A program made the translations under genes and the position numbers. A DNA stretch of 64,000 nt from Cetorhinus maximus (taxonomy: Eukaryota): positions 24,862,001 to 24,926,000 of the forward strand of contig NC_135901.1 of NCBI RefSeq assembly GCF_964194155.1, in the 5' to 3' direction. Under the pieces are notes generated by a model. The model was not told the DNA's origin and did not search any database. It saw only the letters and a program-made list of their open reading frames with translations. This document shows positions 19,500-25,418 of the stretch, piece after piece. The first letter of the stretch is position 1. Each line of letters begins with the position of its first letter.

Positions 19500-20603
19500 C
19501 AGAGAGTCATAGAGTTATACAGCACCGAAAAAGGCCCTTTGGCCCATCGCGTCCATGCTGGCCATCAAGCACCTATCTATTCTAATCCCATTTCCCAGCA
19601 CTTGGCCCACAGCCCTGTATGTAATGGTGTTTCAAGTGCTTACCTAAATACTTCTTAAATGTTGTCAGGGTTCCTGCCTCGACCACCCCCTCAGGCAGTG
19701 TGTTCCAGATTCCAACCATCCCCTGTGTGAAAATATTTTTCCTCAAATCCCCTCTAAAGCTCCTGCCCCTTACCTTAAATCTCCACCCCCTGGTATTGAC
19801 ACCTCTGCTGAGGGGAAAAGTTTCTTCTTATCTACCCTATCTATGCCCCTCATAATTTTGTACACCTCTATCAGGTCCCCCCTCAGCCTTCTCTTCTCTA
19901 AGGAAAACAACCCTAGCCTATCCAGTCTCCCTTTACAGCTGAAACACTCCAGCCCAGGCAACAGCCTGGTGAATCTCCTCTGCACCCTCTCCAGTGCAAT
20001 CACATCCTTCCTATAGTGTGGTGCCCAGAATTGCACAGATTACTCCAGATGCGGCCCAACTAGTGTTTTATACAGCTCCAACATAACCCCCCTGCTCTTA
20101 TATTCTATGCCTCGACTAATAAAGGCAAGTATCCCATATGCCTTCTTAACCACATTGTCTACCTGTGCTGCTGCCTTCAGGGATCTATGGACTTGTACAC
20201 CAAGGTCCCTCTGATCCCCTGTACTTCCTCGGCTCGTGACATTCATTTGTATTCTCTTGCCATGTTAATCCTCCCAAAATACCTCACCTCACACTTCTCA
20301 GGATTAAATTCAATTTGCCACTGTTCTGTCCATTTTACCAGCCCATCTATATTACCCTGTAATCTAAGGCTTTCCTCTTCACTATTTACAACACCACCAA
20401 TTTTTGTGTCACTTGCGAACTTGCTGATTATACCTCCTATATTAACATCGAAATCATTAATGTACACTACAAATAGCAAGGGTCCCAGCACCGATCCCTG
20501 AGGTATACCACTCATCACAGGCTTCCAATCACTAAAACAACTTTGGATCATCACCCTCTGCCTCCTGCCACTAAGCTAATTTTGGACCCAGTTTGCCAAA
20601 TTG
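19500..20603 (-). mobile_element. 5'-truncated CR1
   Basis: ORFs 20243-20554, 20040-20246 and 19770-20036 carry RT and C-terminal motifs; tail near 19500. Confidence 0.9.
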
Positions 20604-20694
20604 CAGAGCTCGAAATCGGGACTAAATTAACCACGTTAGCTATATGGGGGCTGCAGCTGACCGACGCTGCAGAGTACCACTGCTCCCTGATGCT
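20603..20694 (+). pseudogene. orphan antigen-receptor V segment 3' fragment (TCR alpha/delta-like FR3)
   Basis: AELEIGTKLTTLAIWGLQLTDAAEYHCSLML contains the V-set L-x-I-x-x-L-Q-x-x-D-x-A-x-Y-x-C motif and directly abuts an RSS. Confidence 0.75.
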
Positions 20695-20733
20695 CACAGT
20701 GACAGAAAACAGTGAAACTCTCATACAGAACTC
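20695..20733 (+). promoter_or_regulatory. 23-RSS (V(D)J recombination signal)
   Basis: CACAGTG + 23-nt spacer ACAGAAAACAGTGAAACTCTCAT + ACAGAACTC (6/9 match to ACAAAAACC). Confidence 0.7.
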
Positions 20734-21157
20734 CCCCCACTATGGATGCCTGGGCCCCAGCTGCTGAAGCGTGATCTCAGGGCGGTCAGATGTTGACACG
20801 GTGCTGAGTCACGCCCCTGTGAGCTGACACACACGGAGACGGAGCCAGGAAGCAGCCCCTTGTGTGAAGGACTCACAACAGACTGATTATTTGACACTAG
20901 GAAGTGTTCCTGAGTGTCAGCAATCTCTGTCTCGGTGCGTATCTGAACATTGAACCCTGGTTTTAAAGGGAGAAGTATTTGATCAGAGGCAGGAAGGAAG
21001 GTTTAACCTGTACATTGATTCTCTGATGGGTCTGTCTGTCCGATTGGATTCTACAGTTTGTTTTCTCAGCTGCTCCTGGAGACAGTTGGGTGACGGTTTA
21101 AGCCGAGTTTCTATCTGACACCCAACAGACAGAAGCTCCCAGCCACAGTCCAAAGGC

Positions 21158-21196
21158 AGTTTTTGTACAGGGGTGAGACAGTTTTCCATCACCGTG
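21158..21196 (-). promoter_or_regulatory. 23-RSS (V(D)J recombination signal)
   Basis: Minus strand CACGGTG + 23-nt spacer ATGGAAAACTGTCTCACCCCTGT + ACAAAAACT (6/7 and 8/9 matches to consensus). Confidence 0.8.
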
Positions 21197-21330
21197 AGTC
21201 TTAGAGAGAGTGCAGTGTGAATACGCTGTTGTCTCAGCAGGTCATTGCTTCTTGTAAAGGTATTCTCACATTCAGAATATTGAAACAGAGTGAACACATT
21301 GGTGTTCAGTGTATTGGGAGGATTCAGAGA
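21197..21330 (-). pseudogene. degenerate zinc-finger remnant fused to a V-like end
   Basis: FQYSECENTFTRSNDLLRQQRIHT-ALSLRL then RSS; a second finger remnant (SSQYTEHQCVHS, other frame) lies upstream. Confidence 0.6.
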
Positions 21331-21499
21331 GAAGCTGGAAGCGGCGGATAGTGAGAGTGGAGAATGTTTATTGTTTATTACAGAGATAAAAACAAAAAAC
21401 TGCGGATGCTGGAAATCCAAAACAAAACATCTCCGCCGATGCTGCCAGATCTACTGAGTTTTTCCAGGTATTTCTGTTTTTGTTCATTGTTTAATATTC

Positions 21500-21790
21500 G
21501 GCTCTGGGGCCGCACTCGGAATTTGTAAACCCCGTCCCCCCGCCCGGGGTTTATTAACCCGCTCCCGACAGTGACCTCTCACCTGACAGCTAACAATGCC
21601 CGCCTGATTGACGGCAGCTCAGGACCAATAGCAGGAGGGGGCGTGTCCGCGGTAGCGGCTGGTTCTCGAGCCAATCGGAGTGATGGAGGGGCGTGGCTAG
21701 GCTGCGACTGAAGCATGCGCAGTACTGGAATCAGAGCCGGAAGAAGGCGGTCGGGTTAAGATCACAAAGGGTGAGAAATGAAGCCGACGG
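21500..21790 (+). promoter_or_regulatory. promoter and non-coding first exon of ZNF 24465-25418
   Basis: CCAAT boxes (~21625, ~21671), GC box, GCATGCGCAG (~21713), CCGGAAG ETS site, donor AGG|GTGAGA at ~21771. Confidence 0.6.
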
Positions 21791-23985: not shown

Positions 23986-24464
23986 TTTTCCCCATGCACC
24001 AGCTGCTCTTGTCTTTCCAGGTGGTGGGGGTCATGGGTTTGGGAGATTCTGTCAAAGATTCTGGTTGAGTTGCAGATCTATGAAATCCAACTCCTTTTCC
24101 CCTCCTCCACCTCTCTCTCTCTTCTCCCATAGAGGCCAGAGTCTTGTGTAGGCCCAGACTGGGAGGCAGGTTCCCTTCCCTGAAGGACATTGGTGAACCA
24201 GTTGGGTTTTTATGACAATCCAGCAGTTTTCATGGTCATTTTTTCCTAGTGTCAGCCCCACAAATTATCAGATTCATTCAGCTCAATTTCACAGCCTGCC
24301 TTTGTGTTTTTGTGGGTTCTGTTTCATATTTCCTTGTTTGTTTTAAATTCATTTTTACAGGGTATTAGAAAGATTTTCAGTCGGGAAAGTCAAACCAAAC
24401 ATCACATCGAAATCTGCCAGAGTCGCTCAATTCATCAGGACCTGAATATTGTCAGCCTTTGAAC

Positions 24465-25418
24465 ATGGAAGCAAAAAGTACCGTTCACACCAGGGAGAAA
24501 CCCTGGAAATGTGGGGACTGTGGGAAGGGATTCAGATCCCCGTCTGAGCTGGAAACTCATCGACGCAGTCACACCGGGGAAAGGCCGTTCATCTGCTCCG
24601 TGTGTGGGAAGGGATTCATTCAGTTAGTCTGTCTTCAGAGGCACCAGCGACTTCACACTGGGGAGAGGCCGTTCACCTGTTCTGTGTGTGGAAAAGGATT
24701 CACTCTCTCATCCCGTCTGCTGAAACACCAGCAAGTTCACACTGACAAGAGAGAGTTTAAATGTCCCAACTGTGAAAAGAGCTTCAAAAACCTACACGGA
24801 CTGAGGGTGCACCAGCACATTCACACCAGGTATGCACCATTCAGCTGCTCACAGTGTGGGAAGAGGTTCAGGACATCACCCCACCTTCTGACACACCAAC
24901 GAGTTCACACTGACGAGAGACCTTTTAAATGTTCAGACTGTGGGAAGTGCTTCAAAACTCCTGGGGATCTGCAATATCATCAACGTATTCACACTGATGA
25001 GAGACCGTTCAGATGCTCTCACTGCGGGACTGGCTTCAGGCAATCGTCTCACCTCACTACACACCAACGCACTCACACTGGGGAGAGGCCATTCACCTGC
25101 TCCAAGTGTGGGAAAGGATTCAGTCAGTCATCCAACCTGTTGACACACCAACAAGTTCACACTGAAGAGAGGCCATTCACCTGCTCTGAATGTGGAAAGG
25201 GATTCACACGATCATCCCACCTGCTGAGCCACCAGCAAATTCACACTGGGGAGAGGCCGTTTACCTGCTCCAAGTGTGGGAAGGGATTCACACAATCATC
25301 AGCGCTGCTGACACACCAGCGAGTTCACACTGAGGAGAGACCCTTCACATGCTCCATGTGTGGGAAGGGATTTAATCGATCATCCAACCTGGGGAAACAC
25401 CAGCGAGTTCACATGTGA
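24465..25418 (+). CDS. C2H2 zinc-finger protein, 11 fingers, intact
   Basis: AACATGG start, [19 protein letters not shown].., 11 C-x2-C..H-x3-H repeats with TGERPF-type linkers, TGA at 25416; acceptor TTTTACAG at ~24360. Confidence 0.9.

What the first reader, a model, noticed from the sequence alone, without database searches (positions are those of the whole stretch)
21158..21420. Zinc finger joined in frame to a near-consensus 23-RSS, head-to-head with a ZNF promoter
Seen: the minus strand reads SECENTFTRSNDLLRQQRIHT-ALSLRL and then the heptamer, so a finger sits where a V domain would be. The junction shares CACTGC between the finger end (ATTCACACTG) and the neighbouring V end (TACCACTGC), with 4 extra nt. 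The promoter at 21500-21790 lies about 200 bp upstream in divergent orientation. Inference: a microhomology-made ZF-RSS chimera, possibly in accessible chromatin. Speculatively this is a route by which RAG could rearrange ZNF arrays. The finger has lost one Cys and one His, so this copy looks decayed.
Basis: partly seen in the sequence, partly recalled or inferred. Interest (0 to 1): 0.7.

Follow-up and report, generated by a model that had tools for sequence, protein, structure and literature searches.

The report
Zinc-finger scrap before TCR recombination signal
In a shark-type T-cell-receptor region, a broken scrap of a zinc-finger gene sits directly in front of the DNA-cutting signal of a lost receptor gene; it was copied 13 times along with its neighbours and is most likely a non-coding leftover of a DNA-repair accident, although the immune recombinase could still cut there.

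Summary
In detail: a near-consensus 23-RSS (21196-21158, minus strand) follows a decayed C2H2 finger. It is a three-part chimera: ZNF promoter-side DNA, a 116-nt piece from inside a different ZNF family's finger exon (net 11-nt deletion, first Cys lost), and the last 16-20 nt plus RSS of a TCR alpha/delta-type V. The ZF-V join shares 4 nt (ACTG). The V end is still attached to its own RSS and neither parent has a usable cryptic RSS there, so RAG probably did not make it. The '4 extra nt' come from the V parent. The junction occurs in 13 copies (95-100% alike) inside 16-20 kb segmental duplications, all from one event; 64 of 73 same-family RSS sites keep their V. RSS changes among copies (3 versus 1.6 expected) show no constraint, with low power. 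The contig carries the known elasmobranch TCR alpha/delta-IgH complex, with J segments 10.7 Mb away. Verdict: a V relic with an orphan RSS, not a ZNF-rearranging system. Left open: the RSS lies 380-525 bp from a CpG-rich promoter and could act like a deltaREC element. The scan noted a similar ZNF-before-RSS join in another genome (e1-9569010).

The parts
21158..21196 (-). 23-RSS of a TCR alpha/delta-type V: heptamer CACGGTG 21196-21190, 23-nt spacer, nonamer ACAAAAACT 21166-21158
   Evidence: spacer and flank match the V family; heptamer is CACAGTG in 10 of 13 copies
21197..21216 (-). V stub: last 16 nt of a V exon plus the 4 nt (ACTG, 21216-21213) shared with the finger piece
   Evidence: match to V parents L018-L025 begins at 21216; text alignment
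21213..21328 (-). 116-nt piece from inside the finger exon of one ZNF family: tail of one finger plus one finger; net 11-nt deletion in the linker (after 21286), first Cys lost
   Evidence: 116 vs 127 nt against donor L015, 5 mismatches and 2 gaps; donors L014-L017, L026-L030; no Pfam match at E<=1 for 21103-21402
21329..21600 (-). ZNF promoter-side module of another ZNF gene family, broken off at 21328/21327 (2 shared nt); holds a splice-donor-like CAG|GTGAGA at 21583/21582 (donor role inferred)
   Evidence: unfused paralogs L062-L082 continue differently after the break; motif check
21378..21480 (.). 103-bp high-copy repeat inserted only in this copy, flanked by a 12-nt direct repeat with 1 mismatch
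   Evidence: absent from 12 of 12 other copies; flanks printed
21600..21790 (.). CpG-rich, likely bidirectional ZNF promoter (CCAAT, GC boxes, GCGCATGC at 21720-21713, CCGGAAG; motif names recalled); its + arm likely serves the ZNF at 24369-25412
   Evidence: function inferred
20734..21157 (.). Spacer DNA between the two convergent V RSSs, collinear with V-parent loci (84-90%); holds a weaker RSS-like site at 20797-20835 (+)
20623..20733 (+). Partner V relic: 72-nt V end with its own 23-RSS (CACAGTG 20695-20701, ACAGAACTC 20725-20733), facing the first RSS
19500..20622 (-). Broken LINE reverse-transcriptase fragment (CR1-like, name recalled) standing where the partner V body was
   Evidence: gap in collinearity with V parents; three-frame translation; multicopy in the window
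24369..25412 (+). Open 11-finger C2H2 ZNF exon, duplicated together with the relic

Best explanation
This is a truncated TCR alpha/delta-type V relic whose V body was replaced by a scrap of zinc-finger exon and ZNF promoter DNA, likely through a RAG-independent, microhomology-assisted germline rearrangement, and it likely codes for nothing. Shown: three source sequences, their breakpoints, 4 shared nt at the ZF-V join, 2 at the other join, a frameshifting deletion, and 13 copies from one origin inside larger duplications. Inferred: either two successive deletions or one template-switching repair event in a region where V segments and ZNF genes are interleaved; the relic then spread as a passenger of duplicated ZNF blocks and is now drifting. 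The RSS looks good because it is an authentic V RSS that has had little time to decay. It could be joined occasionally to a D or J, as V pseudogenes are, giving a sterile product.
For: Each side matches a separate unfused parent family up to a sharp point; the V side is collinear with V-parent blocks for about 10 kb. ZF donors do not carry this promoter module upstream: only 73-88% matches to the more distal promoter part, in 4 of 12 donor stretches. A 4-nt overlap arises in 2% of random joins of these parents. The V end is still attached to its RSS, which excludes a signal-end join. The donor's CAC at the join has no nonamer (7-9 of 9 mismatches in 9 of 9 donors) and is retained in the chimera; the V's internal site reads CGCAGTA with 8 of 9 nonamer mismatches in 8 of 8 parents. 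First Cys lost and linker frameshift in 13 of 13 copies. RSS changes 3 vs 1.63 expected on a tree of length 0.105. All 8 other placed copies share 16-20 kb with the window, including both neighbouring ZNF genes. The partner V 500 bp away suffered the same fate with a LINE in place of its body.
Against: All 13 copies keep the essential CAC, while 8 of 8 unfused V parents have lost it; with so few changes this is not significant either way, and the constraint test has low power. The flank between promoter and finger piece shows 2 changes in 45 nt (0.044 per site vs 0.104 overall). One clade of 8 near-identical copies has an ATG in the finger frame (119-aa frame through finger and RSS in the 6 of 8 printed), keeps both His, and has a weakened donor-like site. 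The true unfused donor block (about 5% diverged) was not found; the V parents are about 11% away. The 2-nt overlap at the second join is uninformative (17% by chance).
Confidence: 0.8

Rival explanations
1. deltaREC-like element: the accident placed a real 23-RSS a few hundred bases from a CpG promoter, so RAG2 would be recruited through H3K4me3 and the RSS would be used in thymocytes as a non-coding partner for D-delta or J-alpha, deleting or inverting megabases of the complex.
For: RSS 379-411 bp from the GCGCATGC promoter motif in 12 copies and 525 bp here, CpG o/e 0.79-0.96. RAG binding is driven by H3K4me3 promoters, which are normally poor in heptamers (PMC5175335, passages). RSSs with no coding segment are used as deltaRECs in mouse (PMC4995090, passages). 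Same contig as the J cluster; 4 of 9 placed copies are in deletional orientation; open-frame Vs with good RSS lie as far out as 22.8-23.9 Mb.
Against: The copies in deletional orientation are 7-11 Mb from the J segments; the two nearest copies (1.2 and 1.4-1.6 Mb) would invert, not delete. Mouse deltaRECs lie in or near the loop domain, the main one 120 kb from Trdd. No RSS constraint. No rearrangement data.
Confidence: 0.13
2. Germline RAG made the junction by cutting at a cryptic heptamer in the V 3' end (V-replacement-like; recalled mechanism) or in the His-Thr linker codons of the finger.
For: RAG-type joining in shark germ cells is reported for Ig light chains (PMC2193156, passages). The join lies on heptamer-like words on both sides. 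An earlier AI note describes a ZNF joined to an 8-nt V stub in another genome (e1-9569010, not checked).
Against: The donor's CAC is kept rather than cut off; the V site lacks CAC; neither has a nonamer. The join falls inside both words, not at their borders, and is explained by 4 shared nt. His-Thr linkers give CACACTG everywhere: 80 sites in the window, 1 with a nonamer at <=3 mismatches.
Confidence: 0.05
3. A system in which RAG rearranges zinc-finger segments to J or to other ZNF segments to diversify DNA-binding proteins.
For: The finger frame has V-like phase to the heptamer; 13 copies; one clade has an ATG-led frame; ZNFs and antigen-receptor segments share the contig.
Against: No intact finger in 13 of 13 copies; one origin only; 64 of 73 same-family RSS sites have V bodies and the other 9 are these copies; no 12-RSS next to a ZNF at similar stringency in the window; the only available partners are TCR or IgH D and J segments.
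Confidence: 0.02

Closest known systems
Truncated V pseudogenes / V relics with retained RSS in TCR and Ig loci (class recalled; pseudogene Trdv3 is rearranged, PMC4995090)
   Same: V 3' end and authentic 23-RSS with spacer and flank; body lost; no coding capacity; drifting
   Different: The replaced body is ZNF exon and ZNF promoter DNA; amplified 13-fold inside ZNF duplications
deltaREC elements of mammalian Tcra/Tcrd (PMC2198968, PMC4995090; passages read)
   Same: 23-RSS without a coding segment on the chromosome of the delta D/J and alpha J segments
   Different: Use by RAG not shown; 1.2-14 Mb from the J segments rather than about 120 kb; only 4 of 9 placed copies would delete; no conservation shown; derived from a V end
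Elasmobranch antigen-receptor complex (Flajnik et al. 2025, PMC12227049; abstract, results section 6 and term search read)
   Same: TCR alpha/delta translocon, IgH miniclusters and scattered TCR-type V exons on one chromosome, as on contig C24 here
   Different: The main text has 0 occurrences of 'zinc' or 'ZNF' (supplements not read); interleaving with ZNF clusters and such chimeras are not described there
Germline-joined shark Ig genes (PMC2193156; passages read)
   Same: Inherited rearrangement in a shark antigen-receptor region
   Different: Those joins remove the RSSs and show hairpin-type ends; here the RSS stays on its own V end and the join has microhomology

Membership tests
23-RSS | CAC-led heptamer, 23-nt spacer, A-rich nonamer | tested here: met
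   1 mismatch in each element; family spacer; consensus as in PMC5175335
23-RSS | Cleaved by RAG with a 12-RSS partner | not testable with these tools
   needs a reporter assay or HTGTS
TCR alpha/delta V relic | Sequence descends from a V-set exon end in the TCR alpha/delta region | tested here: met
   stub and flank match L018-L025 and L044-L052; L047 is Pfam V-set, E 7.9e-16; among natural receptors its best PDB matches are human TRA/V-delta-1 chains (where engineered multi-domain antibodies rank higher); J cluster on the same contig
TCR alpha/delta V relic | V body and leader lost or broken | tested here: met
   V coverage 0 of 97 aa upstream of the RSS in copy L177; ZF and promoter DNA in its place in 13 of 13
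C2H2 zinc finger | C-x2-C-x12-H-x3-H ligands | tested here: not met
   first Cys is Tyr in 13 of 13; first His is Gln in 3 of 13; no Pfam hit
deltaREC-like deleting element | RSS not attached to a coding segment | tested here: met
deltaREC-like deleting element | Upstream of D-delta in deletional orientation and within reach | tested here: inconclusive
   4 of 9 placed copies are oriented to delete but lie 7-11 Mb away
deltaREC-like deleting element | Joined to D-delta or J-alpha in thymocytes | not testable with these tools
   no raw lymphoid reads were offered
deltaREC-like deleting element | Conserved under selection | tested here: inconclusive
   3 RSS changes vs 1.63 expected, low power; no cross-species genomes held
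RAG-made germline join | Breaks at heptamer borders, with the RSS removed or joined as a signal end | tested here: not met
   V end still on its RSS; donor CAC retained; no usable cryptic RSS

The most novel reading that the evidence does not exclude
A family of 13 promoter-coupled orphan 23-RSSs, born by a ZNF-V accident, acts in shark thymocytes as deltaREC-like RAG targets. The ZNF CpG promoter supplies the open chromatin that a V promoter normally would, and joins to D-delta or J-alpha delete or invert up to 11 Mb of TCR V segments, IgM clusters and ZNF genes.
Probability: 0.13. Interest if true: 0.6.

Novelty: new member of a known kind. Interest (0 to 1): 0.25.

Why it matters
As a relic it matters little: it shows how V segments and ZNF genes interleaved in the shark antigen-receptor complex swap pieces. 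Its use is as a natural experiment. It puts a near-consensus RSS beside a housekeeping-type promoter, a setting reported to be poor in heptamers in mammals, at nine placed distances (1.2-14 Mb) and in both orientations relative to one J cluster. Whether and how often these sites rearrange would show how far RAG reaches in this very large complex and whether accessibility alone licenses an RSS.

Tried and rejected
Expression: no RNA holder listed. Four runs guessed to be RNA were laid as contigs: no listed contig covers the heptamer or bridges the ZF-V join, finger-side depth fades at about 21212, one depth-3 contig covers 20904-21172, and the tables were cut and flooded by the 103-bp repeat. 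A fifth guessed-RNA run laid nothing. None of this is evidence either way. DNA runs: one contig each in X12 and X9 (labels organism B and C) spans the RSS and runs 26 letters into the finger side, under the tool's 31-letter rule for bridging, so not counted; X2 listed none. Protein search with the junction part of the 119-aa frame: no candidate among proteins of 65-209 aa; other lengths were not searched. Earlier-findings search by this DNA: nothing; near this place: nothing. Assembly artefact: rejected, since 13 diverged copies form a tree; 4 copies on unplaced contigs may be haplotype duplicates of placed ones. Simple deletion within one ZNF gene: rejected, donors have a different upstream region. 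Neighbouring V as donor: rejected. N-nucleotides: rejected. A genome-wide list of all 23-RSSs could not be obtained, so the census covers one V family's signature only. C-alpha was not located. A tandem second RSS behind each V: only 3 of 38 family sites pass a loose test, 1 well. Paper searches listed nothing on ZF-RSS fusions or on ZNF interleaving with shark TCR loci; most subscription journals are not in the library.

Full report
OBSERVATION. The RSS is CACGGTG (21196-21190), 23 nt, ACAAAAACT (21166-21158). It is the only site in the window with at most one mismatch in each element, against 0.065 expected per simulated window. The window is otherwise a dense C2H2 ZNF cluster. A second V end with its own 23-RSS faces it on the + strand at 20623-20733.

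THREE PARENTS. A search of the own genome with 21050-21420 gave 48 matches from 40 scored candidates out of 790: 13 full-length copies (the window's included), ZNF genes matching only 21328-21213, and V loci matching only from 21216 onward. (a) V side: L018-L025 are convergent pairs of TCR-type V segments, the relevant member being a pseudogene in the copies read. The window follows them from 21216 through the partner V, and after a LINE-filled gap for about 10 kb more at 83-90%. Intact family members end YYCALR with CACAGTG-ATGGAAA...-ACAAAAACT; L047 is a Pfam V-set domain, and its best natural receptor matches in the PDB are human TRA/V-delta-1 chains. (b) Finger piece: it comes from inside the finger exon of one ZNF family (9 donors read). 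Against L015 it is 116 vs 127 nt with 5 mismatches; the net 11-nt deletion puts the two finger parts out of frame. (c) Promoter side: 21329-21600 is a module found in many ZNF loci; 15 of the 18 unfused ones read continue with other sequence right at the break and 3 are cut 15 nt earlier by another insertion. The donors do not carry this module upstream, so both joins link different genes.

HOW THE JOIN WAS MADE. Donor and V parent share ACTG at the join; an overlap of 4 or more arises in 2% of random joins of these parents. The other join shares 2 nt (17% by chance). The four nucleotides beyond the standard V end are in all 8 V parents, so they are not N additions. RAG signatures are missing: the V end is still attached to its RSS; the donor's CAC is kept in the chimera and has no nonamer in 9 of 9 donors; the V-internal site reads CGC, not CAC, with no nonamer in 8 of 8 parents. 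I infer microhomology-assisted repair, by two deletions or one template-switching event (mechanism names recalled). Germline RAG joining exists in sharks (PMC2193156, passages) but leaves a different anatomy.

COPIES AND SELECTION. The 13 copies are 95-100% alike over about 750 nt; 8 form a near-identical clade, 4 of them on unplaced contigs that may be haplotype duplicates. For all 8 other placed copies the shared block fills most of the 20 kb fetched and includes both neighbouring ZNF genes, with long finger frames in most, so the relic rides along. The first Cys is lost in 13 of 13 and the first His in 3 of 13. Heptamer plus nonamer changed 3 times against 1.63 expected; the finger piece changed at 0.087 per site against 0.104 overall, and the 45-nt promoter-side flank at 0.044. 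The test has little power. Against my reading: all 13 keep CAC while all 8 unfused V parents lost it, and the eight-copy clade has an ATG in the finger frame, giving a 119-aa frame through finger and RSS in the 6 copies printed, with a weakened donor-like site. That is one lineage, an ATG in 68 open codons is common by chance, and the window's copy has none.

IS IT RECURRENT? The family signature (heptamer with 2 nt before and 7 after) has 76 exact matches, 2 in the reversed control. Three lie on other contigs without V or nonamer; 9 are these chimeras (1 checked, 8 by coordinates); 64 have a V body (37 checked directly, 27 by adjacency to V hits). So there is one origin in this family; other V families were not surveyed. 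The partner V has a LINE instead of a body, so 'foreign DNA in front of an RSS' happened twice within 600 bp and is not special to zinc fingers.

SETTING. The window is C24:24.86-24.93 Mb. On C24, 28 of 30 12-RSSs found in 14.08-14.16 Mb carry FGxG J segments on the minus strand. Delta-type D/J segments and NAR-TCR-like cassettes lie at 14.24-14.30 Mb. One repeated 12-RSS recurs from 0.3 to 19.8 Mb, and the two copies read belong to IgH V-D clusters, with IgM-like constant exons beside one (segment names from recalled motifs, C-alpha not located). All 150 scored V hits (of 2076 candidates) are on C24 or unplaced contigs, and open-frame Vs with good RSS reach 22.8-23.9 Mb. This fits the elasmobranch antigen-receptor complex of Flajnik et al. 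2025 (PMC12227049; abstract, section 6 and term search read; supplements not read), whose main text does not mention zinc fingers. PMC10751288 (passages) notes ZNF copies around shark MHC-Ia-like genes only. The window's RSS is 10.7 Mb from the J cluster; the nearest strict 12-RSS listed is 5 Mb away.

WHAT IT COULD DO. The RSS lies 379-525 bp from the GCGCATGC motif of a CpG-rich promoter in all 13 copies. A donor-like site at 21583 suggests the relic sits in what was intron 1 of a lost minus-strand ZNF gene (inferred from the motif and from 4 of 18 parents with same-strand fingers within 1.5 kb downstream; the module could also be read as belonging to the + arm). RAG is drawn to H3K4me3 promoters, which are poor in heptamers (PMC5175335, passages), and non-coding RSSs act as deltaRECs in mouse and human (PMC4995090, PMC2198968, passages). 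So occasional joining to D-delta or J-alpha is plausible; the product would be sterile or leaderless. A regular deleting role is unlikely: the 4 placed copies oriented to delete are 7-11 Mb away and the two nearest would invert.

VERDICT. A real feature, best read as a V relic with an orphan RSS, made once and multiplied as a passenger (0.8). deltaREC-like use 0.13, germline RAG origin 0.05, ZNF-rearranging system 0.02. New member of a known kind; interest 0.25.

Noticed in passing
G000:C24, about 0.2-26 Mb: TCR alpha/delta V segments, IgH miniclusters and ZNF genes are interleaved over more than 20 Mb on both sides of one J cluster. Ordinary V-J joins from distal Vs would delete or invert many ZNF genes and IgH clusters in each T cell. 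The ZNF interleaving is not mentioned in the main text of PMC12227049.
   Followed up: partly
window 20623-20733 and 19500-20622: The partner V has an intact heptamer in 13 of 13 copies but a LINE fragment in place of its body: a LINE-RSS chimera facing the ZF-RSS chimera.
   Followed up: partly
window 20797-20835 (+); L047:1616, L052:1616, L188: A second RSS-like site about 102-107 bp behind the first RSS of several Vs; well formed in 1 of 38 family sites, decayed traces in many; the matching stretch is deleted behind the chimera's RSS (near 21107).
   Followed up: partly
L006-L013 (e.g. L011:1488-1847): Eight-copy clade with an ATG-led 119-aa frame through the finger and RSS, both His kept, and a weakened donor-like site; its four placed members lie inside the main V field.
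   Followed up: partly
window 21378-21480: 103-bp very high-copy repeat inserted in this copy only, with a 12-nt flanking direct repeat.
   Followed up: partly
G000:C18:75.3-76.5 Mb (L095-L111): 17 nearly identical 12-RSSs in both orientations; the 3 read follow kappa-like light-chain V exons (name recalled).
   Followed up: partly
G000:C30:18.30-18.36 Mb: At least 14 near-identical CACTGTG-12-nonamer sites on one strand at kilobase spacing; nature not checked.
   Followed up: no
L018-L025: Unfused convergent V pairs whose first member has a dead heptamer in 8 of 8 copies, also multiplied with ZNF blocks.
   Followed up: partly
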